From: a virus
Lineage: Duplodnaviria; Heunggongvirae; Uroviricota; Caudoviricetes
Reading direction: 5' to 3' (one strand)
Virus record (IMG/VR): IMGVR_UViG_2913167280_000005
Coordinates: 1-34,109 of that record
DNA length: 34,109 nucleotides
Part shown: positions 333-33,750 of the stretch, piece after piece
How the letters are laid out: each line of letters starts with the position of its first letter
Position numbering within the stretch: the first letter of the stretch is position 1
Translations under genes and position numbers: made by a program
Notes under the pieces: model-generated
The model's input: only the letters and a program-made list of their open reading frames with translations
Database searches by the model: none
Told to the model about the DNA's origin: nothing

Positions 333-1136
333 ATGTGTCGGGTTCTGAAGGTCGCCCGTGCGGGATTTTACGTCTGGCTTCATCGCCCTGTTTCTGCCGG
401 AGAAAAGGATAATCAGCGGTTGCTGGAGCTCATCCGCGATGCTTATGCACTGAGCGGCGGAGTCTACGGTTATCGCAGGGTTCACGGCGATCTTCGTGAA
501 ATCGGTGAAGTATGCAGCAGAAACCGAGTTGCCAGAATCATGAAGCGGAACAGGATACAGGCCGTACATGGCTATAAGGTCCCGCGTGGCGTCAGGGGAA
601 GGCCGTCACTGATAGCTCCTAATCGCGTACAGCGGGAATTTACGGTGGTAAAACCCAACCAGGTGTGGGTAACTGATATTACCTACATCCGCACCTGGCA
701 GGGTTGGCTGTATCTGGCGGTGGTTATCGATCTTTTTGCCCGTAATGTGGTGGGCTGGTCGATGAAACCAACGCTGTCGCGCGAGCTGGCACTGGATGCG
801 CTGCTGATGGCAGTCTGGCGGCGTAAGCCTGCAGAAAACGTCATAGTGCACAGCGATCAGGGCAGTCAGTATGGCAGTGATGACTGGCAGCGGTTCTGCA
901 GGGCCAACAATCTGGCGCCGAGCATGAGCCGTCGTGGCAACTGCTGGGATAATGCGGTGGCAGAATCGTTCTTCAGTTCACTGAAAAAAGAGCGCATCAG
1001 AAAGCGGATATATAAAACCCGGGACATGGCCCGGGCGGATATCTTCGATTACATTGAAGTGTTCTACAACCGGACCCGACGCCACAGTCATCTGGGTGGC
1101 GTCAGCCCGGAGGCCTTCGAAAAGGCCTCACCGTGA
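333..1136 (+). CDS. IS3-family transposase OrfB (DDE catalytic domain), likely made as an OrfAB fusion by -1 frameshift near 247-252
   Basis: 267-aa ORF with rve-type integrase-core motifs (VWVTDITYI, LYLAVVIDLFARNVVGW, GNCWDNAVAESFF); the frame is open upstream to the slippery site. Confidence 0.85.
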   Translation: MCRVLKVARAGFYVWLHRPVSAGEKDNQRLLELIRDAYALSGGVYGYRRVHGDLREIGEVCSRNRVARIMKRNRIQAVHGYKVPRGVRGRPSLIAPNRVQREFTVVKPNQVWVTDITYIRTWQGWLYLAVVIDLFARNVVGWSMKPTLSRELALDALLMAVWRRKPAENVIVHSDQGSQYGSDDWQRFCRANNLAPSMSRRGNCWDNAVAESFFSSLKKERIRKRIYKTRDMARADIFDYIEVFYNRTRRHSHLGGVSPEAFEKASP

Positions 1137-1330: not shown

Positions 1331-1765
1331 TTAAATTACGGATGTAATTATTAGTGCATCATAATAATTTGAGATAAAGGAAGGCTTACGAAGGGCTAGC
1401 CGAAGGAAACCGAAGCATTGCTGTATCAGCATTGTCAACTTATCGAAAGCATCCTCGTGAACCTCGGCGAAAAACTTCCCCTGATTACGGAGATCAATCT
1501 CCTGGGTAACCGGCAGGTCGCGAGAGATCGAAATCTGCCAGGCAGTAGTGAGTGGCGTAGCCAGAACTACATTGCCGCCGGAATATGACCCGGCACCTTG
1601 CACTGTGTAATCAGTGTCAAGAATCAGCGTGGTTAGGTTCTCGTCAAGATCCACAACCTGTACAACCAGGTCGGCTTTCTGGAAGATTCGGAAGGTGTAT
1701 GGGAATGAAGTCGTGACTCCGTTCCCGTTATATTCATTGTGGTCGACTTCGGTAGAGACCGTCAT
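1331..1765 (-). pseudogene. tail fibre/tailspike gene, N-terminal particle-binding fragment only (truncated)
   Basis: Starts MTVSTEVDHNEYNGNGVTTSFPYTFRIF, recalled as the conserved N-terminus of enterobacterial phage tail fibre/tailspike proteins; ATG at 1765 with GGAGA 7 nt upstream (track ORF begins at an upstream GTG at 1804). Only 144 codons, with no distal receptor-binding or catalytic domain, and it ends about 200 bp from the IS. Confidence 0.55.
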
Positions 1766-1865
1766 GTCTTTTCTCCAGATGTTCAGCGCCCGGCGCGCAT
1801 ACACATCTCCATTCTATTACCCATAAATCCTTATATGAATCGAATGAATAACAATCAGTTGTTTT

Positions 1866-1958: not shown

Positions 1959-2219
1959 ATGCAACGGCAGTATCATCACCCTCTGGAAGATGGATTCGCA
2001 GAACGCATACACACGCCGGGAGGCGTAAGATCCCTGATTGAAGAATCGCACCTGATGGACTTGCTGAGAGAGTTGCAAAAAGACGGGTACGACGTTAGCG
2101 GGGCAACGGCGGAACTTACCGCGCTTGTTAACTACGTCACAAGCTCACAAATTTCTATGAAAGATTTGCAGACACATCTGGACTACTGCGCCATGCAGCT
2201 ACAGCAGCAACTTAGATAG
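1959..2219 (+). CDS. hypothetical 86-aa protein encoded antisense to the late operon (moron-like)
   Basis: ORF with GGAGA 7 nt upstream of its ATG, preceded by an AT-rich tract (TATATGTATATATATACA) and followed by a GC hairpin at 2231-2246. No recognisable domain. Confidence 0.35.
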   Translation: MQRQYHHPLEDGFAERIHTPGGVRSLIEESHLMDLLRELQKDGYDVSGATAELTALVNYVTSSQISMKDLQTHLDYCAMQLQQQLR

Positions 2220-2230
2220 TAAGAATGGAA

Positions 2231-2250
2231 GGCCGCAGAAGCGGCCTTTG
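2231..2250. terminator. GC-rich hairpin (GGCCGC-AGAA-GCGGCC) with short T tract; possible bidirectional terminator
   Basis: Stem-loop read directly; followed by TTTG on the plus strand and by TTCCATTCTT on the minus strand. The U tracts are weak. Confidence 0.35.
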
Positions 2251-2261
2251 TGACATGTCAC
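2250..2261. repeat. 12-bp palindrome GTGACATGTCAC, copy 1 of 3
   Basis: Exact palindrome overlapping the stop codon of the 64-aa membrane-protein gene; the same motif recurs at 20545 and 22897. Confidence 0.45.
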
Positions 2262-2452
2262 AGAAGAGGAAGTTTGAACACGATCGCCGCCAGCACCACA
2301 AACGTTAGGAAGTAGACAGCTTTTGACGATGTTTCTCCTAGCAAGCCCTTATCAATAGCAAAGATTATCGCCCACAAATATGCGGTTCCGCAGGCAACAA
2401 CCACAGCAAACCAGAAGATAATCAGACCTAGCTTCAGTAAAATATCCATCAT
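2258..2452 (-). CDS. small membrane protein (64 aa, 2-3 predicted TM helices); virion/ejection-associated or holin-like
   Basis: Strongly hydrophobic sequence (LGLIIFWFAVVVACGTAYLWAIIFAI, AVYFLTFVVLAAIVF); start overlaps the stop of the upstream gene. Confidence 0.5.
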   Translation of the reverse strand: MMDILLKLGLIIFWFAVVVACGTAYLWAIIFAIDKGLLGETSSKAVYFLTFVVLAAIVFKLPLL

Positions 2453-5205
2453 TGCCCTACCGCCTTACCTAAATCCGGCGCACGTCTTGGCGCTGTATCA
2501 CCAGGCTCCCACCAACTGGTGGTGTTGAACTCCCGCTGGGCCCGGTCTCTCACCCTATCGTTGTAGCCAGGGTTTGCCATCTCCTGAAGCTGTTGCAGGA
2601 TCAGATGATTGGTCACCGCTTTAGCATACCAGAGGTTGGCGAACGGGGTGATCATGCGCGCCGTCTTCAGCGCATCGGCGCCGAATGACGTCTCTTCACC
2701 TTGTAGCGCCTTCTGTGGGTTGGTGATGAGGAGTTTAGTCAACTGTTCAGCGAAGCTCAGTACAGGGCCGCCCAGAGTGGCCGCAATACTGGAGCCGTAC
2801 TGCGTGTGGTCCTGGAACAGGAAATCGCCGTAGATGCCGAATGAACCACCTTTAAGCAGCGGCTGAATCCACGTCGTAGGCTTCGTCATATCAAGCGGGT
2901 CATTACCAGTAAGCAACGAGTTCATCTGGTTGGCAAACATGCCTGCCAGCGTTGTTCCAGCAATGTATGACGCAAGGAACTTGATACCGGGCACGCGGTC
3001 AAGATCTATTGTACGGTTAACCAACTGACGGAACCCGGCAAACGACGTGGTTTTGAATAGCATGAAGCTCTTCACCAGTTGTCCGGCATCATCACGGGCA
3101 TATGTATCCAGCCCGGTCGCCGTCGTGATGGCACTGGTCATTTCTCCGTGTGTGACACCCAGCAGTTTTTGAGCCGCTTCAGCACGGGCATTACGAACCA
3201 TGCGAGCAACAGTCTGTTCTGCCTCTGCATCGAACGCCTGTTTCATCCTGGTTCGACGTTCCTGTGGGATATCACCAAGAGCCGCCAAAGCGGTTTCACT
3301 CCCGGCCCTAACCTGCGCAATTCGATCAGCCATGATTGCGTGTATCGCTTCATCAGGTACGGCGTAAATCGCGTCCGGTGTCATTCCCATGTGGCCTGCT
3401 GTGGTCATTGGCCTGAGTTCTGCTGCCGCCATGATAGCCCAGTCCTCATTGCTCCAGCCTTTGCTGGCAAGAATGGTCTTGTCTGACCCCTTCACCTCAT
3501 CCAGCGTTTTAAAAGTGCGTGTCAGTTCGCCGATGTTCTTGTACATCAGCAGACCGAACGAAGCTTTGTTGGCGCGGTCCATTGCGATAAGACCGGACCA
3601 CTTCAGCGTCTTCTCAGCAAACCAGCCGGTGATGCCACGTGACAGGTCAAAGCCGCCCATCTTCGATACCACTGCGGCATGAGAATCCACCAGCAGGCCA
3701 AGCTCAGCATTAGCTCGCTTTGCGTCACCGCTGAACAGGTTTTTGATGGTGTTAGCAGAGAGACGCATACCGCCTCGCGAGAAGCCAAGAGCCTGAGCGT
3801 TGGCACGCATGATGGCCTGGTCACTGGTCGCCGTCAGAACGCTGGTACCGAGCATGGCGCTGGTCATCAGGTTACGCAGACCGCCGACGGCTGACGTGAA
3901 CACGCTTGATTCCTGCACGCCATTCAAACCGGCCATTGAGTTAAACATGCGCTCAACCATCGTTTTCTCGCTGTTCATCTTACCGACGTCTTTACCACCG
4001 GTGACTGCACGCTGATAAATCCTGTCGTTAATCAGCTTGAAGTTATTCGCCGCGTCTGGGCCAAAGGCCTTTACAGTGCCCAGGTCTCGAGACGATGACT
4101 GAAGGTGTGACATCATCACGCCGACAACCGGCTGTTCGGTGTAGCGTTCCATGTACGCGAAGTGCGACTGTGCATCCTTGAACGCCATCACCCTGCTCTG
4201 CGAACCACGATTTTTAATGCCACCTGTTCCCATGAATGCGCCGGGGTCCAACTTGTTCGCACCGTCTGTCGCCTTGGTTTCGTAAATGGCCTCCAGCGCC
4301 TGGCGGTACTCGATGTCATTCATCGGTGAGCCGTCGAGATTCACATACTGCGAGCGGTCTTGCGTGTTGTACACGTCGTCGACCCAGGCCTGTTTAGCAA
4401 ACTCAATCGGCGGCTGCCGTCCTGATAATCGAGCCTTGGCCTGCTCCGCTGCAGAAAGGCTGGCAAGCCATTCATCGCGGCCTGAATTACGGATAAGGTC
4501 AGCATCGTCGACATACGGCAGATTCCAGTTATCACGCTGCCCGATATCAAACCCGGCGTCGTTCATCTCCTGACGAGCCCGGCTGGTCACATCACCCCAG
4601 ACCTGAGCTATTTTCTTCGCCTGTGGGTTGCCCGTGTCTTCACCGTAAATCTCTTTGAGGATCTGCAACTGCCCGGACTTCGCCACGCGCTGATCGAACA
4701 GGCTGCGGAAGCGTTGCTCGCCGAGTGCCTTACTCTGCTCGAAAAACTTCTGCACTTCTGGCCCGGCCTTCAGTAGTTCGGCGCTTAGTTGGCGAGACCA
4801 GTCCTGATATGCGCCGGTGGCGAGTTCTTCCGCCGAGGTAACAGGAATATCAGTTCTGTCTGTTGTACGACGGCCGGAGAAAATAAGTTGCTGGAGGTTG
4901 GCTGGGGTTTGCTGCTCTGGCGGGATGGCGGCATCCAGCGTATCGGTGACTTTCGATATGGCAATCGCATTTTGCGCAAGGCGCTGGCGCTTCTTATACA
5001 CGTCATGCACCACGCGCTGGCGAACCAACTCGGCGGCATCCATATATGTCTGAGCGTCGGGGATACCAGTTTTGCCTTCTCGTGCATTGTTGCGGCTGAC
5101 CTGACGGACGGCTTCCTTGATGCGGTCCTCAATATTTTTCAACTCATCGGCCTTTGGCTTGCGCCCAAGCGTCTGCGCAATGGCTTCTACACATGCCTGT
5201 TTCAT
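2449..5205 (-). CDS. large internal virion/ejection protein (about 918 aa)
   Basis: Long ORF in the structural operon; ATG at 5205 overlaps the upstream stop (TAATG) with GAGGAA upstream (track start is a GTG at 5226). Function is from size and position in a T7-like gene order. Confidence 0.6.
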   Translation of the reverse strand: MKQACVEAIAQTLGRKPKADELKNIEDRIKEAVRQVSRNNAREGKTGIPDAQTYMDAAELVRQRVVHDVYKKRQRLAQNAIAISKVTDTLDAAIPPEQQTPANLQQLIFSGRRTTDRTDIPVTSAEELATGAYQDWSRQLSAELLKAGPEVQKFFEQSKALGEQRFRSLFDQRVAKSGQLQILKEIYGEDTGNPQAKKIAQVWGDVTSRARQEMNDAGFDIGQRDNWNLPYVDDADLIRNSGRDEWLASLSAAEQAKARLSGRQPPIEFAKQAWVDDVYNTQDRSQYVNLDGSPMNDIEYRQALEAIYETKATDGANKLDPGAFMGTGGIKNRGSQSRVMAFKDAQSHFAYMERYTEQPVVGVMMSHLQSSSRDLGTVKAFGPDAANNFKLINDRIYQRAVTGGKDVGKMNSEKTMVERMFNSMAGLNGVQESSVFTSAVGGLRNLMTSAMLGTSVLTATSDQAIMRANAQALGFSRGGMRLSANTIKNLFSGDAKRANAELGLLVDSHAAVVSKMGGFDLSRGITGWFAEKTLKWSGLIAMDRANKASFGLLMYKNIGELTRTFKTLDEVKGSDKTILASKGWSNEDWAIMAAAELRPMTTAGHMGMTPDAIYAVPDEAIHAIMADRIAQVRAGSETALAALGDIPQERRTRMKQAFDAEAEQTVARMVRNARAEAAQKLLGVTHGEMTSAITTATGLDTYARDDAGQLVKSFMLFKTTSFAGFRQLVNRTIDLDRVPGIKFLASYIAGTTLAGMFANQMNSLLTGNDPLDMTKPTTWIQPLLKGGSFGIYGDFLFQDHTQYGSSIAATLGGPVLSFAEQLTKLLITNPQKALQGEETSFGADALKTARMITPFANLWYAKAVTNHLILQQLQEMANPGYNDRVRDRAQREFNTTSWWEPGDTAPRRAPDLGKAVGQ

Positions 5206-7142
5206 TATGGATTCCTCAGGAAGCACGCCGCCGCAACGGAGTAAACTTTCGATTTTGCTTTTGCAGTCTGGATCTGCTCGTCAAAGTCAGCCAGAACATC
5301 GGATAACTTCATCTGCTGCCCGGTGTCAGGATGCGTTACGGTCAGATCAGGATTAGCTGTCGCCATGTCGCGCGCTGCCATCAATTCATAGTTGTTGTCA
5401 GAAATGGCCTGTCCACTGTCCGGATCAACGCTTACCTGTCCGGCATCTTCATCAACACGAGAAAATGCGCTTTCGCTGCGTGGAGCCTGCGCCTCCATGA
5501 CGGCATCACGCGGCGTTTCATAGTGAACGCCATTCTCCTGGAAAACCTGCTCCATTGCATGGTACTGATCGTTGGCTGACTCCAGCATGCCAGGACGCGC
5601 CGGGCCATCCAGCCCACGCGCCTGCATAACGATGTTAACCGGCTGGCCTTCTGACAACTGACGGGCTGCCTCATCCATGGCGGCCACATGGCTGTTAATA
5701 CTCTCGTTTGTACCATGCAGTACTGGTGCAGATTCGATGTCGTAATACAACCCCTCGTTCAGCGTGTGTGCCGCGTCAATGTCGCTGGGTTTGATTGGTG
5801 TTTCCGGAACCAGGCCGCGCATACTCTCAGGAATGATCCCCTGTTCCATACGTGATAAGTCGGCTTTTGCCTCGTAGAACTGGCCGCCTGGCTCATGCGG
5901 AGCCAGGGTGTCTCTGGCGTTTTGCAGACGGTCTCGCGCAACAGTCAGCTGATTGCTGATATCGATTAATTTCTCACGATTGGCTTCGTAGTAGCGCTTG
6001 TTGGCACCCGCTGAGCCGGTCGGCTGAGCATCACGAATTGCCTTTTCCTCGGCCTCCAGTCGCGCCACAGTTCGCTCACCATTGGCAATATCTGATTGCC
6101 ACACTTTCCTGTCACCGCGTGACATCAGTTTCCCGGCGCTGTCCTGTAGTTCTGCCATCCTGGAATCGAATGTTGCTGGTGGCTGCACTGCATCTGTAGG
6201 CGTTCCGATCTCAACAGTTGCTTGCTGCGTAGCATCGACAGGAGCAGCATCAGGTGCAACAATTCCATCAGGTGCGCTCTGCACCTCAGCCGCCGGGATA
6301 GGCGCTTCCACATCGACAGGGTTTGCTGTATCAGTGGCAACCGTGTCGGCACCATCAGCACCGCGCGCAGAAAGATGGTGAGCGCCACCGAACGCGCCGC
6401 CCAGTACCGCATCAATCATCACAGCCTGTCCATCCCATACGCGGTACTGCTTCGCCATATCGGAATAGCCTTTTTCTTCCAGCGTTTCTCCGACGGAAAA
6501 ACGGTTTATACCGCCGAATCCGACGTTGATCCCCACGCCTGAAGCGATACGCGTCAGCAGTGTTTTCCCAAGCGCGGCAGGAAGCGCCATACCCGCAGCG
6601 TTGAAGGTACTTTGCTGCGCTGCGAGATTACGCGCCGTGGACTCATCCACTCCCTTAGCTCTGAAATCCTGATAAGACTGCTCATAAGTAGAGCCGAATG
6701 CCGTTGACGCACCAATAACCGGGCCGCCAGCGATCGTTGCACCAATTGCAGGAACGAACTGGCCCAGACCATTTAACACTTCGGCGGCAGTTCCCTGGCT
6801 TGCCGGGTCTGGTTTGACGTATGCACGCGCACTCTTCAGCGAGTCACTCAGGCTGTCGTAGCTTTCATTGAGCTGCTTGTCAGCATCAGGGAACATCACG
6901 CGGAACATATTCACCGTCGGGGCTACAGCATCAGCCAGAGCAGGATCGCTGATCAGCCGCTTACTGAATCCCACAGCCGACTGCGCCAGCCCCGTAGCGC
7001 CCTCCGCAATGCCGCGCGGCAATGCAGACGCAGATCCCTGAAAGAATGTCGGGTCGTAGTCTTCTGGCCTGGCTGGGTTGGCCTGTGTCTTGTCATCAGT
7101 CCATGCCTGGCCTTCTGGTGCCAGCGAAAATACATCTGCCAT
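5205..7142 (-). CDS. internal virion/ejection protein (645 aa, Ala/Gly-rich segments)
   Basis: ATG at 7142 overlapping the upstream stop; composition and position typical of podovirus core proteins. Confidence 0.6.
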   Translation of the reverse strand: MADVFSLAPEGQAWTDDKTQANPARPEDYDPTFFQGSASALPRGIAEGATGLAQSAVGFSKRLISDPALADAVAPTVNMFRVMFPDADKQLNESYDSLSDSLKSARAYVKPDPASQGTAAEVLNGLGQFVPAIGATIAGGPVIGASTAFGSTYEQSYQDFRAKGVDESTARNLAAQQSTFNAAGMALPAALGKTLLTRIASGVGINVGFGGINRFSVGETLEEKGYSDMAKQYRVWDGQAVMIDAVLGGAFGGAHHLSARGADGADTVATDTANPVDVEAPIPAAEVQSAPDGIVAPDAAPVDATQQATVEIGTPTDAVQPPATFDSRMAELQDSAGKLMSRGDRKVWQSDIANGERTVARLEAEEKAIRDAQPTGSAGANKRYYEANREKLIDISNQLTVARDRLQNARDTLAPHEPGGQFYEAKADLSRMEQGIIPESMRGLVPETPIKPSDIDAAHTLNEGLYYDIESAPVLHGTNESINSHVAAMDEAARQLSEGQPVNIVMQARGLDGPARPGMLESANDQYHAMEQVFQENGVHYETPRDAVMEAQAPRSESAFSRVDEDAGQVSVDPDSGQAISDNNYELMAARDMATANPDLTVTHPDTGQQMKLSDVLADFDEQIQTAKAKSKVYSVAAACFLRNP

Positions 7143-10698: not shown

Positions 10699-13172
10699 CA
10701 GAATCCTCCCACGGTAATGCGAGGGATAACCGCCAGCACAGACAGCGGTAGCGGGTCAGTTTGCTGCACTTTAATGCGCCCGTTCTTATCCCAGTCGCTG
10801 TCCAGTTTCACTTCTACTTTGCCAGTGGCGTCGTCAACTGGATCGTCGTAAAACTCAAACTCGCGCTGTGGGTACTCGTACCACTTTCCGCCAGGTGTTG
10901 ATGCAAAGATGCCGCGGCTGGCATTCACCACCAGCGTAACGGTAGGGATTATCTGTTTTTTATCGAGCAGCGTTTCCTGCCCGTTAATATTGATGTCCAG
11001 CGTTTCAAACTGAGCATTAATCGGCAGGCCGATATGCACCACGCCGCCGGGAGATTCCAGCGTTACCTTGCCGGCAGTGACAATTTTCTGAGGCTCGACG
11101 CTGGCATCAGACAGAATGTTTACTGTTTGGCCTTCAAGGTGATTAAGCCCGGCAAACGTCATACGCGCCATGCGCCAGTTGGTGGTTGCGGTGTTTCGCA
11201 GTACCGGAGGAATGTTGCGGTTAGCGCGAACGGTGACGACAGTTCCGCTGGTATAAGCAACGATGTCACAACGCAGCTCCATATCAACCGGCTCGCCTGA
11301 AACCGGATCTGTTCCGATGTATGGCATCTGTATTTGAGAACCGACATCACCGGCATTGAAGTAGCTGGCGCTCATAGTCAGCGTGTAATCAGTTTGATAG
11401 ATCCAGTCTCCGCTACCGCCGCTGATAGTTGCCGTTGTTGTTCCAGTGTTGCGGCCATCATAGCTCAGTCCACAGTCTACAAAGAAGGCATCCAGATCGT
11501 TGGTGAACTGACGGCTCGAAAGGCGTTCGATGTAACGGACTGTCTGACCGTTAATGACACGCTTCACGCTGAAATACACGGCATCTTCGTCGCCTTCGCT
11601 GATGCAACAAGTGCTTTCATAGAATCCGGCGCTGGACTGCGGAGCCCAGGCGAAGACCTGCTGATCACGAAGATAGGTCAGCACCAGTAGTTTGCCATCG
11701 TCACGAATGCAGAAAGCGCTGGAGTACGGCACAATACAAAATGACCAATCGACCAGGCTGTGCTTCTGAAACAGATGGTTTGCCAGAATGGTAAGGTCTG
11801 AACCCTGATACCCGTCAACGTCGAACGAATAGGCCAGATCCCGCACCACGCTGCCTTTTTCCTGAATGAACAACGCGATGTTTGCCACGGCAATTGGCGG
11901 CACATTGCTACATCCGTTTGAGCCCTGAGAGCTGAAAGAGAATGCGCTTGGTGTCAGCACCTTATTCTGGTCACCGGACACCACATATTCACCACCGGAT
12001 GTCAGCACCACCAGTGATCCCACATCAATCAGGTGACGGATCTCATTCACCTGCCGCCCGGCGTAGGTGTAGATAATCCGGTCATCGTCCTGCGTCGGGT
12101 TGTTCTTGCCGAAGTCTTTGTAATCGCCTGTACGGCTGGCCCAGATAGTTTGCGGGAACGCGGTAGACGCGGCGAAGTAAAGACGCTGCTGGTAATACAC
12201 CACGGTGCCGGGATAGCCGTTTACGCTATTCCAGGCATATGGTGCCCACTTGTAGCTGGCCTTATCAGTGCCCACCACGTTCTCAGGAACGCGTGATACC
12301 ACGGTTGCGGTCGCGCTTTTGTTATTTCCTGCTACGGCAGTAATGCGGACAATGCCAAATCCAGAGTGCAGGTATTCCCACTGGATTCCAGTATCATCGT
12401 CACCAGTTCCGCCCCAGCCATCCCACGACATCCCCTCAGTGTGAGACGGTCGCAGAGTGCCAGTTTTCCCGGCAGTGTTTGCCCGGTAGTAATTGCTGTC
12501 AGCGCGGCGGATATCATCAATAACTGTTGTCTTGCTGGTCTCCCATACAGGAACGGAGTCAACAGCAGGCTGCTCAAGATAAAAAAGCGTGCCCACTAGT
12601 TCACTGCCGAAAATTGCTGAGTTTGATACGAGGGCAACAGTGCCGGTTGTGCCGCTGGAATAGACGGTGATCGACTCATCAACGTTGATATCTTCGAATG
12701 GGCCGTTGCTAGTCACCACATCGACTATCTGCCAACTATCATGGGCAAATCTGCGAAGCTCTTTCGGCGGGTACGACGGATGCACCAGAGTCAGCACATC
12801 GGCGCTTTGTGTGAATTTGATACGGAACAGATCTGCTTCGGTGTACGGCATCGCCAATTCATAAATGACGTTGCTGCTGTTGAGCACGTATGCGCCGTCT
12901 TTGATAACGCGCATGTAGTTGTGGCCGAACTCCAGCGCATAGGTCTGGATGGTCGAGAACTGGAACGGGATCAGACGGCATTTTCTTGTTGGATATTTTG
13001 CAGCGCCGATGAACTGTGTGCCAGGACGGTTCTCAACGCCGCCATATTGACGAACGATGAAGTTGTCGCATTTACGCAGCGCAACCTGGTATTTAGCCAT
13101 GTCGATACGCCCGTACAGCGACGGGCCAATTTCACCACCAGCAAAGCTCGGTTGTATCCAGCTCACAGCCAT
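10698..13172 (-). CDS. tail tube/nozzle protein (824 aa; T7 gp12-like by size and position)
   Basis: Large ORF immediately downstream of the adaptor-like gene; start overlaps the upstream stop. Confidence 0.55.
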   Translation of the reverse strand: MAVSWIQPSFAGGEIGPSLYGRIDMAKYQVALRKCDNFIVRQYGGVENRPGTQFIGAAKYPTRKCRLIPFQFSTIQTYALEFGHNYMRVIKDGAYVLNSSNVIYELAMPYTEADLFRIKFTQSADVLTLVHPSYPPKELRRFAHDSWQIVDVVTSNGPFEDINVDESITVYSSGTTGTVALVSNSAIFGSELVGTLFYLEQPAVDSVPVWETSKTTVIDDIRRADSNYYRANTAGKTGTLRPSHTEGMSWDGWGGTGDDDTGIQWEYLHSGFGIVRITAVAGNNKSATATVVSRVPENVVGTDKASYKWAPYAWNSVNGYPGTVVYYQQRLYFAASTAFPQTIWASRTGDYKDFGKNNPTQDDDRIIYTYAGRQVNEIRHLIDVGSLVVLTSGGEYVVSGDQNKVLTPSAFSFSSQGSNGCSNVPPIAVANIALFIQEKGSVVRDLAYSFDVDGYQGSDLTILANHLFQKHSLVDWSFCIVPYSSAFCIRDDGKLLVLTYLRDQQVFAWAPQSSAGFYESTCCISEGDEDAVYFSVKRVINGQTVRYIERLSSRQFTNDLDAFFVDCGLSYDGRNTGTTTATISGGSGDWIYQTDYTLTMSASYFNAGDVGSQIQMPYIGTDPVSGEPVDMELRCDIVAYTSGTVVTVRANRNIPPVLRNTATTNWRMARMTFAGLNHLEGQTVNILSDASVEPQKIVTAGKVTLESPGGVVHIGLPINAQFETLDININGQETLLDKKQIIPTVTLVVNASRGIFASTPGGKWYEYPQREFEFYDDPVDDATGKVEVKLDSDWDKNGRIKVQQTDPLPLSVLAVIPRITVGGF

Positions 13173-25898: not shown

Positions 25899-26573
25899 CT
25901 ATGCGCCGTCGCTTCGAACCATGATGATGTGCCGCGCCAGCTTCTGCTGCCACTGGTATTGATTAAGCGACACCTCTTCGCATTTCCAGAAGTCGATGAA
26001 TGACGCCAACTCTGTTTTCCTGACACCTCGCTCAACCGGCGTACCCCATTCTTTCGACTGCTCTGCAAAGTCTGGATCTGGCCTCCAGTCTGAATGCATC
26101 AAAAAGTTATCCACAGAGTTTTTCGCGCGCGCGTTATGAGTGGGGTTTATATGGGGTTTATATTCTTCCTCTTCCTCTTCCTCTGGTAACGTTTTTTGTA
26201 ACGCTGGTTGCGTTACCTTTTGCGTTTCACGCTTTCTAAGTTCTGCCACCCTTCTGTTTGTAAGTGCTCGTTTTTTCGATGATTCTCCGTTATGCCGCTC
26301 AAAGTTAGGCAGGATGAGCTTTCCTTCCTGATAGGCAAGCCAGCCTACAGAGATCAGTGCGTCGGCGAATCCTGTAATAAAAGCGATCCTGTCGAACACT
26401 CCCTTTGTAACGCTGCCAGCGTTACCGTCTATCGTTTGTTGATCGGCCCATGCCCATATGCGAACCAACTTTCCAAGAACAGCATCCGGGTCAATATTCA
26501 ACAGTTCTGCTATCTGGAAAATCTCGGGCTTGTCAGGGGTGATTACTTCAACCTTAATCCAACTACTTGCCAT
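25899..26573 (-). CDS. replication protein (DnaT-like / replisome-organiser-type N-terminal domain, 224 aa)
   Basis: N-terminal region recalled as typical of prophage DnaT-like replication proteins; acidic EEEEEEE linker; position in the replication module. Confidence 0.55.
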   Translation of the reverse strand: MASSWIKVEVITPDKPEIFQIAELLNIDPDAVLGKLVRIWAWADQQTIDGNAGSVTKGVFDRIAFITGFADALISVGWLAYQEGKLILPNFERHNGESSKKRALTNRRVAELRKRETQKVTQPALQKTLPEEEEEEEYKPHINPTHNARAKNSVDNFLMHSDWRPDPDFAEQSKEWGTPVERGVRKTELASFIDFWKCEEVSLNQYQWQQKLARHIIMVRSDGA

Positions 26574-27624
26574 AGTTCACCCCCATATAAGCCCGGATGA
26601 ATTCAGCCTCAGCCTGTGCGTTTATGGCGTTACCGTAACCCTTAAGGCGGCCTGTTCGGTTGCGGCCTGCCAGTGCTCGTAATGAGGACTTTCCGTGTCC
26701 CAGGCTTTTGGCAAACCTTGCAACCAACGGGAATGTGCCGGATTCAACTGGACGCCATTGCCCATCTCGACAAAAGAGCCAGTCCGCATCTCGCCAAAAA
26801 CCGTTAACCTCAAGGGGCCCGCTGTGTATGCCTGTCTCGGCAACTGATCCAGTCGCTCCTTTCCATCCCGCTGCGCTGTCATGCCAGATGTGTCCTTCCA
26901 GTCGCGAGTCGTTGGCGTTACCCATCCGGCTAGTAGTGCTGTGCCCGGTAGTTTCAGGCAGACTTTCGGTGACCCGTCCTGATTTCTCCCGCTGTAGCAA
27001 TGAGTCGAACCGGTTGAATCGTTCGCCATTGGTGTTTGCCATCCCGTTAACCGCGCCGCTCCGGAGACATGTTGCAGGCCGCGCTTCGTTTCCGGCTGCG
27101 GGTTTGTGTTCGCCACTGGCGTGGGCCACCCAGTAGGCCCGCTCTCTGATGTGCGGCGCACCGACGCCCGCTGCCGCAAACGGCACAAGCCCGAAGGCGT
27201 ATCCCAATCCTTCCAGGTCAGCTTGTACAAGGTCGAACCATGGGTTTGCGTTACCAGCTGCAACCTGTTCGCCAAAGACATGCTGAGGTCCGCACTCGCT
27301 GATGAGGTGGAAGAAGGCTGGCCATAAGTGCCGCTCGTCATCAAACCCATCTCCTTTACCTGCCGCGCTGAAAGGCTGGCACGGGGGGGAGCCTGTCCAT
27401 ACTGGTTTATCGTCAGGCCATCCGGCGAGGCGGAGGGAGTGAGACCAGACACCGATCCCGGCAAAAAAGTGGTGCTGAGTGAATTCTCGCAGGTCGTCAG
27501 GTGTGACATCTTCAATGCTCCTTTCGTCAACTTCACCGGGCGCTATGTGTCCGCCGGCGATTAGGTTACGCAGCCACTGAGCTGCAAACGGGTCAATTTC
27601 GTTGTAGTACGCGGCTGGGATCAT
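26563..27624 (-). CDS. DNA cytosine-5 methyltransferase (Dcm-type)
   Basis: C5-MTase motifs FAGIGV (motif I) and PPCQPFSAAGK (motif IV, catalytic PCQ); ATG at 27624 overlaps the upstream stop (track ORF extends to 27696). Confidence 0.85.
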   Translation of the reverse strand: MIPAAYYNEIDPFAAQWLRNLIAGGHIAPGEVDERSIEDVTPDDLREFTQHHFFAGIGVWSHSLRLAGWPDDKPVWTGSPPCQPFSAAGKGDGFDDERHLWPAFFHLISECGPQHVFGEQVAAGNANPWFDLVQADLEGLGYAFGLVPFAAAGVGAPHIRERAYWVAHASGEHKPAAGNEARPATCLRSGAVNGMANTNGERFNRFDSLLQREKSGRVTESLPETTGHSTTSRMGNANDSRLEGHIWHDSAAGWKGATGSVAETGIHSGPLEVNGFWRDADWLFCRDGQWRPVESGTFPLVARFAKSLGHGKSSLRALAGRNRTGRLKGYGNAINAQAEAEFIRAYMGVNYGK

Positions 27625-27815
27625 GCTGCTTCTCCCGCTGCTTTCATCAGAGCTTTGATTTCTGCCTGCCGACGGCGGTTTGTTTCCATCGTGCATTCGA
27701 CGCAGTGTCCGTTATATGTCCAGCGTTCGCTTTGATGTCCGTGTTTGCAGACCTTGCCAGTGTAGTAGCGCTTCAACCCGCTTTTAGCGGCATCATTGCG
27801 CGTAATAATCTCCAT
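27621..27815 (-). CDS. small zinc-ribbon protein (64 aa) directly downstream of the Cro-like gene
   Basis: CKHGH...HCVEC motif; AGAGG upstream of the ATG. Confidence 0.55.
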   Translation of the reverse strand: MEIITRNDAAKSGLKRYYTGKVCKHGHQSERWTYNGHCVECTMETNRRRQAEIKALMKAAGEAA

Positions 27816-28346: not shown

Positions 28347-28934
28347 ATGAAAAGTATCCACGATATTCGCCGCAAGAACCTCATCGATTTAATCGAACGC
28401 GATTTTAACGGTGTGCAAACGCGCCTGGCGGAGCGCCTGGATACTCAGCCTAATCTGGTAAACCGCTGGGCTCGTGGCACTAAAATCATCGGCGACCAGT
28501 CTGCACGTAAAATTGATATGGCAGCCAACAAGCCGACAAACTGGCTCGACACAGATCATGAACTTGTTTCTGTATCGGAATTCCAGCCGGTTGGCCCGAG
28601 TGATATCGGATTGCTGGCAGCTGAGAACCTGGCGCGCTGGATGCGTGAAAGTCGCGACCTGTCTACCCAGGGTAAGCTATCACGGGCATCAGGTGTGGCG
28701 CAGTCAACGCTGAACAGAATGCTCAACAATGAAGCCAGCATCACCCTTGCCACCCTGGAAGCCATCGCTGCCCCGTTCGGTCGCCGCGGTTATGAGTTGC
28801 TCATCCATCCGAAAGACCCCGCAGGAATCAGATACGACAGAACGAAGTACGCATCGTTACCTGAAAGCGAGAAAAGTAAGATTGAAAGTTTCATTGATTT
28901 TGTGATTACTCAGCACGCAAACAACCAGCTATAA
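28347..28934 (+). CDS. prophage repressor with two HTH (XRE-type) motifs, no S24 peptidase domain
   Basis: GVQTRLAERLDTQPNLVNRWARG and LSRASGVAQSTLNRMLNNE look like HTH segments; divergent from the Cro-like gene and followed by a strong terminator. Confidence 0.7.
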   Translation: MKSIHDIRRKNLIDLIERDFNGVQTRLAERLDTQPNLVNRWARGTKIIGDQSARKIDMAANKPTNWLDTDHELVSVSEFQPVGPSDIGLLAAENLARWMRESRDLSTQGKLSRASGVAQSTLNRMLNNEASITLATLEAIAAPFGRRGYELLIHPKDPAGIRYDRTKYASLPESEKSKIESFIDFVITQHANNQL

Positions 28935-28944
28935 CATACTGAAT

Positions 28945-28968
28945 TCTCAGACATAAGCCGCCATTGAG
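28945..28968 (+). terminator. intrinsic terminator (AAGCCGC-6 nt-GCGGCTT plus T tract) after the repressor gene
   Basis: Hairpin and TTTTTT read directly, 11 nt after the stop codon. Confidence 0.75.
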
Positions 28969-28991
28969 CGGCTTTTTTATCGCCCAAATCA

Positions 28992-29069
28992 TTACCCAAT
29001 GGGTAATTTTTTATCATCATATCTATTGACATCAACCCACATACGGATAATTATTACCTCAACGGTAAC
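28992..29069 (+). promoter_or_regulatory. leftward-operon promoter/operator: dyad ATTACCCAATGGGTAAT, -35 TTGACA (29026-29031), dyad ATTACCTCAACGGTAAC (29053-29069)
   Basis: Two dyads flank a consensus -35 hexamer; the second covers the -10/+1 region; the first ORF of the plus-strand operon follows at 29088. Confidence 0.5.
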
Positions 29070-32396: not shown

Positions 32397-32449
32397 CGAT
32401 CACCACCGCGGCGCGAGAAGCGCCGCACATGCAACCAAGTGAGGAATTT

Positions 32450-32698
32450 ATGAAAGGTGCATTCGACAAAAAGAAATTGCTGGCGGTGGTGCCATTGTCA
32501 TGGAGCACAATCGATCGGCTTGAGCAGGCAGGTGAATTTCCTAAGCGCTGGTATATCACCGATAAGCGCTGCGCGTGGACTCAGGAAGAGGTAGAGAAGT
32601 GGCTGGATGAGCGCAAGGCAAATAGCCCTGATGAATTTCAAGGAAAGAAGCCCCCGGTTGAACTTCGAAAATATCGCCCGGTGAGTAGCGCCGCATGA
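32450..32698 (+). CDS. AlpA-like excisionase/transcriptional regulator (about 82 aa)
   Basis: LLAVVPLSWSTIDRLEQAGEFPKRWYITDKRCAWTQEEVEKWL fits the AlpA pattern; GAGG 5 nt upstream of the ATG at 32450 (track start at 32429). Confidence 0.65.
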   Translation: MKGAFDKKKLLAVVPLSWSTIDRLEQAGEFPKRWYITDKRCAWTQEEVEKWLDERKANSPDEFQGKKPPVELRKYRPVSSAA

Positions 32699-32811
32699 CT
32701 GCGCTCACGCGGCACTTCGATAAATGGTCAGGCTGGTATTGGTGCCTGGCCGCAATCAGCGCCTGGCTGTTCCTGCTGGCGCTAATCGCAAGAGAGGGCT
32801 GGATACGATGA
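32695..32811 (+). CDS. 38-aa single-TM hydrophobic peptide, overlapping both neighbouring genes; not in the ORF track
   Basis: Translated by hand as MTALTRHFDKWSGWYWCLAAISAWLFLLALIAREGWIR; start overlaps the AlpA-like stop (ATGA) and stop overlaps the next ATG. Confidence 0.35.
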   Translation: MTALTRHFDKWSGWYWCLAAISAWLFLLALIAREGWIR

Positions 32812-33113
32812 AAAGCATTTCAAGAGCGGAGCGTTATCGCAATGATTATGTGCCGCTTCGCCGCTGTGAGAAGGTTGTGGCGGTCACTGCTGAAGCAATG
32901 GAGATAGAGAGCCGCGCAGTAGAACGTGAAAAACGTGGGCAGTATCGCATTGCCGCCCGTCTTTGGCTGGAATGTATGGACGCGGCACAGGGTGAAGTTG
33001 AGCGCGCCCGTATCGCAGTACGTCGAACTCAATGCATTGCGCGGGGAAATGGCCTGCGCCGAGGCGAGTATTCTGGAATTAGTGCAGGTTGTAATGGGGT
33101 GGTTTATGACTAA
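32808..33113 (+). CDS. PerC-like small transcriptional regulator (about 101 aa)
   Basis: AEAMEIESRAVEREKRGQYRIAARLW resembles the conserved PerC-family core (recalled); ATG at 32808 with GAGAGGG upstream (track ORF starts at 32724). Confidence 0.45.
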   Translation: MKSISRAERYRNDYVPLRRCEKVVAVTAEAMEIESRAVEREKRGQYRIAARLWLECMDAAQGEVERARIAVRRTQCIARGNGLRRGEYSGISAGCNGVVYD

Positions 33114-33750
33114 GTACACGCTAATCTACGCAGATCCGCCTTGGGTTTACCGTGACAAAGCTGCCGACGGAAGCCGCGGGGCCGGGTTCAAATACCCGGT
33201 AATGAACGTCATGGATATATGCCGCCTGCCAGTATGGGATCTGGCCGCCGACGATTGCCTTCTGGCGATGTGGTGGGTGCCGACTCAACCGGTCGAAGCG
33301 CTGAAGGTTGTCGAGGCATGGGGATTCAGGCTGATGACCATGAAGGGCTTCACCTGGCACAAAACGAATAAGCACAAAGGCAACAGCGCGATAGGAATGG
33401 GCCACATGACCCGGGCGAACAGCGAAGACTGTCTGTTTGCCGTTCGAGGAAAACTACCGGCGCGCATGGATGCCTCGATATGCCAGCACATCACGGCACC
33501 GCGGATGGAGAACTCGCGCAAGCCGGATCTCATTCGCGAAAAACTGGTGCAGTTGCTTGGCGATGTACCAAGGATCGAGCTTTTCGCCCGCCAGTCGTCG
33601 CATGGCTTCGACGTATGGGGCAATCAGTGCGAAGGCCCGGCGGTGAAGTTGCAACCAGGATATGCGCTTGATATCGCTGGATTGACGCAGGCATTAAAAA
33701 ACACTCCGCTATCACCATCAGATAAGCAGGGCCAGGAGCGTGCAGCATGA
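33106..33750 (+). CDS. MT-A70-family DNA N6-adenine methyltransferase
   Basis: IYADPPW catalytic motif near the N-terminus; ATG at 33106 (an alternative ATG at 33094 is in frame; track start at 32926). Confidence 0.85.
   Translation: MTKYTLIYADPPWVYRDKAADGSRGAGFKYPVMNVMDICRLPVWDLAADDCLLAMWWVPTQPVEALKVVEAWGFRLMTMKGFTWHKTNKHKGNSAIGMGHMTRANSEDCLFAVRGKLPARMDASICQHITAPRMENSRKPDLIREKLVQLLGDVPRIELFARQSSHGFDVWGNQCEGPAVKLQPGYALDIAGLTQALKNTPLSPSDKQGQERAA

What the first reader, a model, noticed from the sequence alone, without database searches (positions are those of the whole stretch)
32808..33113. PerC-like regulator carried in the early-left operon
The core AEAMEIESRAVEREKRGQYRIAARLW resembles the PerC family, whose prophage-borne homologues in pathogenic E. 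coli activate chromosomal virulence regulators. If genuine, this prophage could modulate host gene expression.
Basis: partly seen in the sequence, partly recalled or inferred. Interest (0 to 1): 0.45.

Follow-up and report, generated by a model that had tools for sequence, protein, structure and literature searches.

The report
PerC-family gene in epsilon15-like prophage
This is a real, well-conserved small phage gene of the PerC family, already labelled as such in public databases; it shares only the core of the E. coli virulence activators, so there is no evidence that it switches on host virulence genes.

Summary
The ORF at 32808-33113 (+, 101 aa) is real and under strong purifying selection. 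It passes the Pfam PerC model (28.0 bits; cutoff 22.6). Canonical EPEC PerC hits this gene's own subfamily profile in return (phrog_868, E 1.7e-7). A profile-profile comparison with PerC/Pch gives 87% probability. The identical protein is already named "PerC family transcriptional regulator" by NCBI (Escherichia sp. E2593). Its orthologue in phage phiV10 is annotated through the same Pfam family.

The window is a Uetakevirus-type (epsilon15/phiV10) prophage of the kind that integrates at guaA. The gene is the gp31-type member of its early-left operon, whose head carries repressor operators.

Only the ~45-55-aa N-terminal core is shared with PerC/PchABC. The C-terminal half that the proven LEE1 activators share is absent. 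The same core scores almost as well against the ANR anti-activator model, though below that model's cutoff. Published tests show PerC-family members that activate, ignore or repress LEE1, so family membership does not predict virulence activation.

Most likely it is a small helical, non-HTH modulator made on induction or infection. The exact mechanism is inferred, not shown. This is an ordinary, already annotated feature of low interest.

The parts
32808..33113 (+). PerC-family gene (101 aa plus stop), the gp31-type protein of Uetakevirus-like prophages (phrog_868)
   Evidence: ORF. Pfam PerC 28.0 bits, above the 22.6 cutoff. phrog_868 matches full length, E 2.5e-44. 100% identical to P0001, named 'PerC family transcriptional regulator'. 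14 synonymous and 0 nonsynonymous differences against L004.
32916..33047 (+). Conserved PerC/ANR-type helical core (aa 37-80), carrying the invariant residues A37 E41 R47 A49 A50 W53 R66 R73 C76
   Evidence: Pfam match aa 37-80 to profile positions 7-50. NCBIfam ANR match aa 35-76. Invariant columns in alignment A3 with PerC, Pch and SfII_42. Helices 28-42, 46-59 and 63-80 with pLDDT 81-89.
33048..33110 (+). Subfamily-specific C-terminal tail (GNGLRRGEYSGI...GVVYD). It is conserved in sequence but modelled with low confidence (pLDDT below 50 from residue 86), and it replaces the C-terminal segment of PerC/Pch.
   Evidence: Alignment A1/A2. Block pLDDT 50/38/38, and below 50 for residues 86-101. 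Tail pN/pS 0.06-0.47. PerC and Pch align end to end, but the window protein does not.
32695..32811 (+). 38-aa single-pass membrane protein gene whose stop overlaps the PerC-like ATG (ATGA), suggesting translational coupling
   Evidence: ORF. phrog_17484 'membrane protein', E 1.4e-20. Same position in epsilon15 gp32, phiV10 p35 and Tyrion gp33.
32450..32698 (+). AlpA-family HTH protein (excisionase/regulator type), two genes upstream
   Evidence: Pfam Phage_AlpA 24.8 bits, above the cutoff of 21. phrog_66 excisionase/regulator. Called as 82 aa in L001. epsilon15 gp33 is annotated as 'excisionase and transcriptional regulator'.
33106..33750 (+). MT-A70 family DNA adenine methyltransferase, overlapping the PerC-like gene's 3' end by 8 nt
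   Evidence: Pfam MT-A70, E 1.3e-25. phrog_359.
29026..29054 (+). Promoter-like site (TTGACA-17-AATTAT, 10 of 12 matches) at the head of the + strand operon running 29177 to beyond 34109
   Evidence: No + strand terminator-like site lies between it and the window end. Successive ORFs overlap by 4 nt.
28992..29068 (.). Two TTACC-N5-GGTAA palindromes (28992-29006 and 29054-29068) bracketing that promoter; inferred repressor operators
   Evidence: The pattern occurs 12 times in the window against 0.43 expected. Sites annotated 'repressor; lysogeny' in epsilon15 have the same sequence type and position. The pattern is also present in phiV10, Tyrion and Klebsiella loci.
28347..28934 (+). Prophage repressor (two-HTH, epsilon15 gp38 / SPC32H Rep type), followed by a terminator-like hairpin at 28955-28974
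   Evidence: PHROG 8/12107 transcriptional regulator/repressor. HTH_3 in L001. Synteny with epsilon15_p19 and phiV10 p40. Hairpin.

Best explanation
The ORF encodes a genuine member of the PerC family (Pfam PF06069), specifically the gp31-type subfamily (phrog_868). This subfamily is a conserved gene of epsilon15/phiV10-like (Uetakevirus) temperate podoviruses and of related prophages that integrate at guaA. SHOWN: it is a selected coding gene. It shares a ~45-55-residue helical core with EPEC PerC and EHEC Pch, including nine invariant residues. It has its own N-terminal helix and its own conserved C-terminal tail, and it lacks the C-terminal half common to the proven LEE1 activators. The model is all-helical, with no HTH or other classical DNA-binding fold. 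It lies in a tightly packed operon between an AlpA-type protein, a tiny membrane protein and an adenine methyltransferase. INFERRED: the operon is driven by a promoter flanked by prophage-repressor operators, so the protein is made on induction or infection rather than in the stable lysogen. INFERRED, about 35-40% likely: like its two characterised relatives (Pch, which loosens H-NS complexes at promoters, and ANR/Aar, which binds H-NS and AraC-type activators without binding DNA), it works as a small protein-interaction module that modulates nucleoid-protein or regulator complexes early in lytic development. It would then not be a dedicated activator of host virulence genes.
For: Gene reality: 14 synonymous and 0 nonsynonymous differences against L004; pN/pS 0.27-0.41. 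Family: Pfam PerC at 28.0 bits against a 22.6 cutoff; 34 of 34 subfamily members hit; BLASTP to canonical PerC gives 37% identity over 68 aa, E 4e-9 pairwise; PerC hits phrog_868 at E 1.7e-7; hhalign gives 87% probability, E 4e-6; nine invariant core residues. Existing annotation: P0001 is identical and named PerC family by NCBI; phiV10 p34 was annotated via PF06069. Subfamily and synteny: phrog_868 matches full length at E 2.5e-44; the same gene order occurs in epsilon15, phiV10, Tyrion, a Klebsiella phage and the E2348/69 guaA prophage. Fold: four helices with core pLDDT 81-89; only weak MIT/TPR-like and small phage ANR-like structural neighbours and no HTH. Operon control: promoter-like site at 29026-29054; TTACC-N5-GGTAA sites occur 12 times against 0.43 expected and match epsilon15's annotated repressor sites. 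Mechanistic analogy: Pch reduces H-NS occupancy at LEE1 and has no known DNA-binding motif (PMC4764244); Aar binds H-NS and AggR without binding DNA (PMC4983702, PMC5570504); the ANR signature A10-E14-A22-W26 has the same spacing as A37-E41-A49-W53 (PMC4983702).
Against: No experiment exists for any phrog_868 member; the literature searches found none. The match to the PerC model is modest and partial (28 bits, profile positions 7-50 of 90). The ANR model is hit below its cutoff (23 bits against 32). Repressor control of the operon rests on sequence analogy and on the epsilon15 depositor's annotation, not on data for this prophage; an unrecognised internal promoter could give expression in the lysogen. 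H-NS or regulator modulation is extrapolated from relatives that differ outside the core. The conserved tail and N-terminal helix have no known counterpart, so the real partner could be something else entirely.
Confidence: 0.55

Rival explanations
1. The protein is a functional equivalent of PerC/PchABC, and when expressed it activates ler/LEE1 or other chromosomal virulence regulators of the host.
For: It shares the family core, including all nine invariant residues, with PerC and Pch. PerC and PchABC are interchangeable LEE1 activators (PMC5293775, citing Porter 2005). EPEC E2348/69 carries an orthologue of this gene in its guaA prophage, so the subfamily does occur in LEE-positive strains.
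Against: It lacks the C-terminal ~25-40 residues that PerC and Pch share. It belongs to a different subfamily (phrog_868, against phrog_994 for PerC/Pch). PchD, PchE and PICI-borne PerC-like proteins do not activate LEE1, and EcCIMP1_025 represses it (PMC6265319, PMC11773190). Its context is a repressor-controlled early operon, not a moron position as for group-1 pch. A ZX5 lysogen carrying a 65%-identical orthologue showed no change in adherence or virulence (PMC9782041). Whether the host carries a LEE was not determined.
Confidence: 0.08
2. It is an ANR-like anti-activator. It would bind an AraC/XylS-family activator and/or H-NS and repress its regulon, as Aar does and as proposed for the LEE-repressing EcCIMP1_025.
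For: The NCBIfam ANR model hits aa 35-76, covering profile positions 7-48 of 54, at E 5e-5; 33 of 34 subfamily members hit at E of 0.01 or better. The ANR signature spacing A-x3-E-x7-A-x3-W is conserved (PMC4983702). The predicted core is a three-helix unit, and it superimposes at 0.8 A rmsd on a phage protein annotated as ANR. Another PerC-family protein behaves as a repressor, and its authors noted similarity to ANR (PMC11773190).
Against: The score of 23 bits is below the curated cutoff of 32. Canonical activators PerC and Pch also hit the ANR model at 18 and 14 bits, so the signal does not discriminate function. The ANR signature residues A29 and W43 have no conserved equivalent. At 101 aa with an extra helix and tail, the protein is larger than ANRs (under 10 kDa; Aar is 63 aa). 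None of the roughly 17 window ORFs scanned against profile libraries is an AraC-family gene.
Confidence: 0.17
3. It is an accessory factor for its operon neighbours. It could be a partner of the AlpA-type excisionase/regulator (directing excision or PICI-like activation), or a regulator or specificity factor for the adjacent adenine methyltransferase.
For: The order AlpA, 38-aa ORF, PerC-like gene is conserved with overlapping stops and starts. AlpA and PerC-family genes also co-occur in Gram-negative PICIs (PMC11773190). Some distant relatives appear to carry a winged-helix domain fused ahead of the PerC core, which suggests the core works with a DNA-binding partner: P0101 and P0104 (sub-threshold wHTH hits) and SfII_42 (weak MarR-type hits). 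An adenine methylase follows the PerC-type gene in unrelated arrangements and from non-homologous families: MT-A70 here, PF05869 Dam in L004, and dam in SfII.
Against: Adjacency in phage early operons is weak evidence of physical partnership. In E2348/69, Tyrion and Klebsiella relatives, other genes (DUF1317 and others) separate it from the methylase. The wHTH hits in the fusion proteins are below their Pfam cutoffs. No interaction prediction could be run.
Confidence: 0.15
4. It is not a functional gene, only a chance or decaying ORF in a defective prophage.
For: The prophage appears damaged at its late end: the tailspike is truncated next to a transposase.
Against: There are 14 synonymous and 0 nonsynonymous changes against L004, and pN/pS is well below 1. 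Full-length orthologues occur in 36 phage genomes, including viable phages epsilon15, phiV10 and ZX5. It has an SD-like sequence and start/stop overlaps with both neighbours that suggest translational coupling.
Confidence: 0.01

Closest known systems
epsilon15 gp31 / phiV10 p34 'transcriptional activator' (PHROG 868), Uetakevirus early-left operon
   Same: It matches the PHROG 868 profile over its full length (E 2.5e-44), with 65-71% identity to the phage proteins. The gene order is identical: repressor, gp37, gp36, RecE/RecT, AlpA, 38-aa membrane protein, this gene, methylase, integrase. The phage type is the same, and so is the guaA attachment site (ZX5, the E2348/69 prophage, and L001-L003).
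   Different: Essentially nothing; this is the same gene in another host lineage. The neighbours vary: here the methylase follows directly, whereas DUF1317 or gp30 intervene in others. None of these orthologues has been tested experimentally, as far as the searched literature shows.
PerC (EPEC pEAF plasmid) and PchA/B/C (EHEC lambdoid prophages), the LEE1/ler activators
   Same: It shares the Pfam family PF06069 and a core of about 55 residues: 37% identity to PerC over 68 aa, nine invariant residues, and similarity reaching the YS[GD]I motif. Like them it is small, helical, has no known DNA-binding motif and is carried on mobile elements.
   Different: It belongs to a different subfamily (phrog_994 for PerC/Pch). 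PerC and Pch match the whole 90-position profile at 143-149 bits, against 28 bits over positions 7-50 here. It lacks their shared C-terminal segment (IKQ.V....G....FR.YK). It has 30 extra N-terminal residues and its own tail. It lies in a repressor-controlled early operon, not in the perABC operon or a post-lysis moron slot. LEE1 activation has not been tested.
ANR family (Aar, Cnr, Rnr), the AraC negative regulators
   Same: It has the same three-helix core and the same A-x3-E-x7-A-x3-W signature spacing. The ANR model aligns over nearly its whole length (positions 7-48 of 54). ANRs act by protein-protein contacts with H-NS and AraC-type activators, which is a plausible mode of action here.
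   Different: It scores 23 bits, below the curated cutoff of 32. It is larger (101 aa, against under 10 kDa for ANRs). It lacks equivalents of ANR residues A29 and W43. No AraC partner gene was seen nearby. Canonical PerC and Pch hit the ANR model too, so the resemblance belongs to the family as a whole and is not specific to this protein.
Non-activating or repressing PerC-family members: PchD, PchE, the PerC-like proteins of PICIs EcCIEDL933 and EcCICFT073, and EcCIMP1_025
   Same: They are PerC-family by sequence and mobile-element borne, and some sit next to AlpA genes. They show that members outside group 1 do not activate LEE1, and one represses it.
   Different: Their sequences were not retrieved here, so the degree of relatedness to the window protein is unknown. 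They sit in PICIs or cryptic prophage-like elements rather than in a Uetakevirus early operon.

Membership tests
PerC family (Pfam PF06069) | Scores at or above the curated gathering threshold of the family HMM | tested here: met
   28.0 bits against a 22.6 cutoff, E 2.7e-6. All 34 aligned subfamily members hit the model at E of 0.01 or better.
PerC family (Pfam PF06069) | Reciprocal and profile-profile similarity to bona fide PerC/Pch | tested here: met
   Canonical PerC hits phrog_868 at E 1.7e-7, and Pch at 3e-4. hhalign of A2 against PerC/Pch gives 87% probability, E 4e-6, over 57 columns. BLASTP gives 37% identity over 68 aa.
PerC family (Pfam PF06069) | Conserved core residues shared across subfamilies (A..E..G.[YW]R.AA..W ... 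R ... R..C[IL]) | tested here: met
   A37 E41 R47 A49 A50 W53 R66 R73 C76 are invariant in alignment A3 with PerC, Pch, SfII_42, P0101 and P0104.
PerC/PchABC group 1 (proven LEE1 activators) | Full-length match, including the C-terminal half (profile positions 51-90) shared by PerC and PchABC | tested here: not met
   The window protein matches profile positions 7-50 only. PerC and Pch match 1-90 at 143-149 bits and align end to end with each other. The window tail is unrelated.
PerC/PchABC group 1 (proven LEE1 activators) | Activates the LEE1 (ler) promoter and relieves H-NS silencing | not testable with these tools
   This needs a reporter assay. The literature shows that the property is not general to the family (PMC6265319, PMC11773190, PMC4764244).
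PerC/PchABC group 1 (proven LEE1 activators) | Genomic context: perABC operon on pEAF, or a moron slot after the lysis genes of lambdoid prophages | tested here: not met
   PerC lies after perA and perB. Group-1 pch lies between the lysis genes and terminase. The window gene lies in the early-left operon between AlpA and a methylase.
Uetakevirus gp31-type (PHROG 868) | Full-length profile match and conserved synteny in the early-left operon | tested here: met
   E 2.5e-44, residues 1-101 against profile positions 1-99 of 99. Synteny with epsilon15, phiV10, Tyrion, a Klebsiella phage and the E2348/69 prophage.
ANR family (NCBIfam NF033650) | Scores at or above the curated cutoff of the family HMM | tested here: not met
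   23 bits against a cutoff of 32. The best E-value among the 34 subfamily members is 9e-7. PerC and Pch also score 18 and 14 bits.
ANR family (NCBIfam NF033650) | Seven-residue signature A10 E14 A22 W26 A29 W43 R47 on three helices (PMC4983702) | tested here: inconclusive
   A37-E41-A49-W53 reproduce the first four residues with identical spacing, and R73 may correspond to R47. Equivalents of A29 (C56 here) and W43 (I69 or A70 here) are absent.
ANR family (NCBIfam NF033650) | Under 10 kDa, with three helices spanning the whole protein | tested here: not met
   The protein is 101 aa. The model has four helices plus a tail from residue 81 that lacks secondary structure and has pLDDT below 50 from residue 86.
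ANR family (NCBIfam NF033650) | Binds and antagonises an AraC/XylS-family partner and/or H-NS | not testable with these tools
   This requires two-hybrid, pull-down or reporter assays.

The most novel reading that the evidence does not exclude
The gp31-type PerC-like proteins may be the ancestral phage form of a PerC/ANR superfamily. On this reading they are small three-helix interaction modules, made from the repressor-controlled early operon of temperate phages (and of PICIs, next to AlpA). They would remodel H-NS-type silencing complexes or partner with a DNA-binding protein during the lysis-lysogeny switch. The virulence activators PerC/PchABC and the ANR anti-activators would then be later exaptations of this phage module.
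Probability: 0.25. Interest if true: 0.45.

Novelty: already known. Interest (0 to 1): 0.15.

Why it matters
It matters little as a discovery. The identical protein already carries the PerC-family name in NCBI, and the orthologue in phiV10 was annotated through the same Pfam family. The useful result is a caution: the 'PerC' label on this widespread Uetakevirus and prophage gene should not be read as 'virulence activator'. It shares only the core with the proven activators, and characterised family members activate, ignore or repress LEE1. If someone did test it, the gene would be a convenient entry point to what the PerC/ANR core does in phage biology, a question that remains open.

Tried and rejected
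1. Single-sequence searches did not link the protein to canonical PerC. tblastn against plasmids at E up to 10 found only YfdN-type and other PerC-family genes at E 0.09-3, not pEAF perC. The exhaustive phmmer search of 1.8 billion representatives gave only 30 hits, mostly fragments of the same subfamily. Searching with canonical PerC returned only 3 near-identical proteins. Only profiles make the link.

2. No sequence relative has a solved structure in the PDB. Foldseek against PDB and BFVD gave no hit at E of 0.001 or better, only generic MIT/TPR-like three-helix matches. The afdb50 library was unavailable.

3. My first operator pattern, with a 6-nt spacer, was wrong and gave a chance-level result. 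The 5-nt spacer is correct.

4. Porter et al. 2005, the key paper on which PerC-like proteins activate LEE1, is not held in the library. Its results are cited second-hand.

5. Phage ZX5's 'regulatory protein' paper turned out to study the repressor, anti-repressor and integrase, not the PerC-like gene.

6. A spurious-ORF explanation was rejected on the selection evidence.

7. I did not retrieve PchD, PchE, EcCIMP1_025 or Aar sequences, so the protein's position relative to those subgroups is not resolved.

8. I did not determine whether the host genome carries a LEE.
Full report
**1. The observation**

The window holds an ATG at 32808 and a stop codon ending at 33113, giving a 101-aa ORF on the + strand:

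MKSISRAERYRNDYVPLRRCEKVVAVTAEAMEIESRAVEREKRGQYRIAARLWLECMDAAQGEVERARIAVRRTQCIARGNGLRRGEYSGISAGCNGVVYD

A GAGGG Shine-Dalgarno-like sequence lies 9 nt upstream of the ATG. The ATG overlaps the stop of a 38-aa ORF (ATGA). The last codons overlap the ATG (33106) of the next gene.

The ORF is clearly a selected gene.
- A second contig (L004) encodes the identical protein on diverged DNA. The gene differs at 15 nucleotides: 14 synonymous third-position changes, one inside the stop codon, and no nonsynonymous change. The neighbouring AlpA gene differs at 59 of 270 nucleotides, with many amino-acid replacements.
- Against five orthologues (E2348/69 prophage, phiV10, epsilon15, Tyrion, a Klebsiella phage), pN/pS is 0.27-0.41 overall and 0.18-0.30 in the core, with synonymous sites saturated.

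**2. What element this is**

PHROG scans identify the following genes on the − strand:
- major head protein
- portal/adaptor
- large terminase
- a 925-aa virion protein
- a C5 DNA methylase

A two-HTH repressor lies at 28347-28934 (+). A + strand operon starts at about 29177 and runs to the window end.

The window is 100% identical to contig L002 and 99.97% identical to a contig of Escherichia sp. E2593, GCA_004745395.1. On those contigs the operon ends at a divergently oriented integrase next to guaA, guaB and xseA.

The gene order is: repressor, small ORFs, PD-(D/E)XK exonuclease, RecT, AlpA, 38-aa membrane protein, PerC-like gene, adenine methylase, (integrase). This is the order found in epsilon15, phiV10 and Tyrion (genus Uetakevirus), in a Klebsiella phage, and in a prophage at guaA in EPEC E2348/69. 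[quoted passage not shown]

**3.

- Pfam PF06069 (PerC) is hit at 28.0 bits, E 2.7e-6, above the gathering cutoff of 22.6. Residues 37-80 match profile positions 7-50 of 90.
- All 34 members of an alignment of the subfamily hit the same model.
- I retrieved canonical PerC from the EPEC pEAF plasmid pMAR2 and a group-1 Pch from an O157:H7 lambdoid prophage.
- BLASTP of the window protein against PerC gives 37% identity over 68 residues (pairwise E 4e-9). PerC's Met1 aligns with Met31 of the window protein. Against Pch it gives 35% over 37 residues.
- Reciprocally, PerC hits the window's own subfamily profile (phrog_868) at E 1.7e-7, and Pch hits it at 3e-4.
- hhalign of the subfamily alignment against PerC/Pch gives 87% probability, E 4e-6, over 57 columns.
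- Nine residues are invariant across PerC, Pch, the SfII/YfdN type, two fusion proteins and the window subfamily: A37, E41, R47, A49, A50, W53, R66, R73 and C76.

The proposed refutation therefore fails, and family membership stands.

It is also not new. The identical protein (P0001) is named 'PerC family transcriptional regulator' by NCBI. The phiV10 orthologue is annotated 'identified by similarity: Pfam PF06069'.

**4. How far the resemblance goes**

PerC and Pch match the whole 90-position profile at 143 and 149 bits. They align with each other end to end at 47% identity, and their home PHROG is 994.

The window protein belongs to PHROG 868, which it matches over its full length at E 2.5e-44. 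It shares only the N-terminal core with PerC/Pch, up to a YS[GD]I motif. After that point PerC and Pch carry a common C-terminal segment (IKQ.V…G…FR.YK). The window protein has its own tail instead (GNGLRRGEYSGI…GVVYD), and it also has 30 extra N-terminal residues. Both additions are conserved within the subfamily.

The AlphaFold2 model (mean pLDDT 71, pTM 0.52) has helices at 6-17, 28-42, 46-59 and 63-80. The core has pLDDT 81-89, and residues 86-101 fall below 50.

No relative has a solved structure. Foldseek gives no significant PDB or viral match. The nearest shapes are MIT/TPR-like three-helix bundles and small phage proteins. One of these is annotated as an ANR-family regulator and superimposes at 0.8 Å over 50 columns. 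There is no HTH or other classical DNA-binding fold.

**5. The ANR connection**

The NCBIfam ANR model (AraC negative regulators) aligns with residues 35-76 over nearly its full length. The score is 23 bits, below the cutoff of 32. Of the 34 subfamily members, 33 hit it at E of 0.01 or better.

Canonical PerC (18 bits), Pch (14 bits) and SfII_42 (23 bits) hit it as well. The signal is therefore a property of the PerC core in general and not a special feature of this protein.

The published ANR signature A10-E14-A22-W26 (PMC4983702) has the same spacing as A37-E41-A49-W53. Equivalents of ANR residues A29 and W43 are absent. The authors of PMC11773190 made a similar remark for a PICI-borne PerC-family protein.

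**6. Regulation of the gene**

- The promoter scan finds TTGACA-17-AATTAT (10 of 12 matches) at 29026-29054. This lies just after the repressor gene and a terminator-like hairpin (28955-28974).
- No + strand terminator-like site lies between this promoter and the window end.
- Successive ORFs in the operon overlap by 4 nt.
- The promoter is bracketed by two TTACC-N5-GGTAA palindromes (28992, 29054). This pattern occurs 12 times in the window against 0.43 expected, and none of 100 shuffles reached 12.
- In epsilon15, the features annotated 'protein_bind: repressor; lysogeny' at the same position are exactly this palindrome. The pattern recurs in phiV10, Tyrion and Klebsiella loci.

I infer that the operon, and with it the PerC-like gene, is repressed in the stable lysogen and expressed on induction or infection. 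This is an inference from sequence and from a depositor's annotation, not a measurement.

By contrast, group-1 pch sits in a moron slot between the lysis genes and terminase, and perC sits in the perABC operon.

**7. What the literature says about function in the family**

- PerC and PchA/B/C are interchangeable activators of LEE1 (PMC5293775, citing Porter 2005).
- PchA acts by reducing H-NS/StpA occupancy at the LEE1 promoter and has no homology to known DNA-binding proteins (PMC4764244).
- PchD and PchE have little effect on LEE. PchE instead represses csgD and curli and enhances flagellar expression (PMC6265319, PMC7369912).
- PICI-borne PerC-like proteins of EDL933 and CFT073 had no effect on LEE1, and EcCIMP1_025 represses LEE1-lux in C. 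rodentium (PMC11773190).
- Aar, the ANR prototype, does not bind DNA. It binds AggR and H-NS (PMC4983702, PMC5570504).
- A ZX5 lysogen showed no change in growth, biofilm, HeLa adherence or virulence (PMC9782041).
- I found no experimental work on any phrog_868 member.

**8. Best explanation and rivals**

Shown: this is a selected gene of the PerC family, gp31-type subfamily, in the early-left operon of a Uetakevirus-type prophage. It shares only the core with the proven activators.

Inferred: it is expressed early after derepression. It acts as a small helical interaction module on nucleoid-protein or regulator complexes, as its two characterised relatives do. I put this mechanism at about 35-40%.

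Rivals:

| Rival | Confidence |
|---|---|
| True PerC/Pch-like activator of host virulence regulators | about 0.08 |
| ANR-like anti-activator | about 0.17 |
| Accessory factor for AlpA/excision or for the neighbouring methylase | about 0.15 |
| Non-functional ORF | about 0.01, rejected |

The accessory-factor rival gets weak support from distant relatives in which a probable winged-helix domain precedes the PerC core. P0101 scores 20.1 bits on HTH_24, below its cutoff of 21.9, and P0104 has one weak TrmB-type hit. SfII_42 has weak MarR-type hits. It is also weakly supported by the recurrence of adenine methylases from non-homologous families immediately downstream of PerC-type genes.

**9. 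Novelty and verdict**

The feature is real and the family call is right, but it is already annotated as such. The step from 'PerC family' to 'modulates host virulence' is unsupported, and the available evidence leans against it. Interest is low. The most novel reading not excluded is that this subfamily represents the ancestral phage role of a PerC/ANR superfamily in the lysis-lysogeny switch. That would be of moderate interest and needs experiments.

Noticed in passing
window 1867, 19378, 22803/22822, 25770/25832, 28230/28278, 28992/29054 (plus 1-mismatch sites at 11780 and 15236): The palindrome TTACC-N5-GGTAA occurs 12 times (8 exact) against 0.43 expected. Most sites come in pairs 20-60 bp apart in intergenic regions, not only in the immunity region but also ahead of other − strand gene blocks. 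The sequence is the same as the sites annotated as repressor-binding in epsilon15. This suggests the repressor, or another factor, controls several promoters across the prophage.
   Followed up: partly
window 333-1136 (+) and 1331-1804 (-): The tailspike ORF contains only the N-terminal ~138 aa (the head-binding part) of profiles that are 650-1080 aa long. It abuts a transposase gene (phrog_157). The prophage therefore looks truncated or disrupted by an IS at its late end and is probably defective.
   Followed up: partly
L004:4688-4993 versus window 32808-33113; L004 AlpA versus window 32429-32698: A related prophage encodes the 100% identical PerC-like protein with 14 synonymous nucleotide changes. 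Its adjacent AlpA gene differs at 59 of 270 nt with many replacements, and its downstream methylase belongs to a different family (PF05869 Dam instead of MT-A70). This indicates unusually tight constraint on this one small protein within a mosaic operon.
   Followed up: partly
window 33106-33750; L004:4974-5537; L009 (SfII) 2210-3349: A PerC-type gene is directly followed by a DNA adenine methyltransferase in unrelated arrangements and with non-homologous methylases: MT-A70 here, PF05869 Dam in L004, and dam after the 161-aa PerC-domain protein of SfII/SfV. This could be a functional link or simply a recurrent early-region module.
   Followed up: no
P0101 (143 aa), P0104 (149 aa), L009:2210-2692 (SfII_42, 161 aa): Some distant relatives carry an N-terminal probable winged-helix (MarR/HTH_24-like) domain ahead of the PerC core; the domain hits are below their thresholds. 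P0101 also shares the window protein's C[IL]..GN…Y.GIS tail. This suggests the PerC core is an effector or interaction module that needs a DNA-binding partner.
   Followed up: partly
L006:1836-2135 (E. coli O127:H6 E2348/69 chromosome, prophage at guaA): The prototype EPEC strain carries, besides plasmid perC, an orthologue of the window gene (about 70% identical) in a prophage with the same layout. It is a ready-made natural system for asking whether gp31-type proteins affect LEE.
   Followed up: no
window 33048-33110 (aa 81-101): The C-terminal tail is modelled with low confidence (pLDDT below 50 from residue 86) yet is highly conserved (GNGLRRGEYSGI…GVVYD; pN/pS as low as 0.06). Its final codons overlap the start and ribosome-binding region of the downstream gene, so part of the conservation may reflect that overlap.
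   Followed up: partly
window 26563-27696 (-) and 33106-33750 (+): The prophage carries two DNA methyltransferases: a C5-cytosine type in the early-right block and an MT-A70 adenine type in the early-left operon.
   Followed up: no
L010 (phiV10) 5001-5300: The RefSeq annotation of phiV10 p34 starts at an internal codon (locus 5034). The alignment with orthologues supports a GTG start at 5001 that overlaps the upstream membrane-protein gene, as in the window. The annotated start is probably too short.
   Followed up: no
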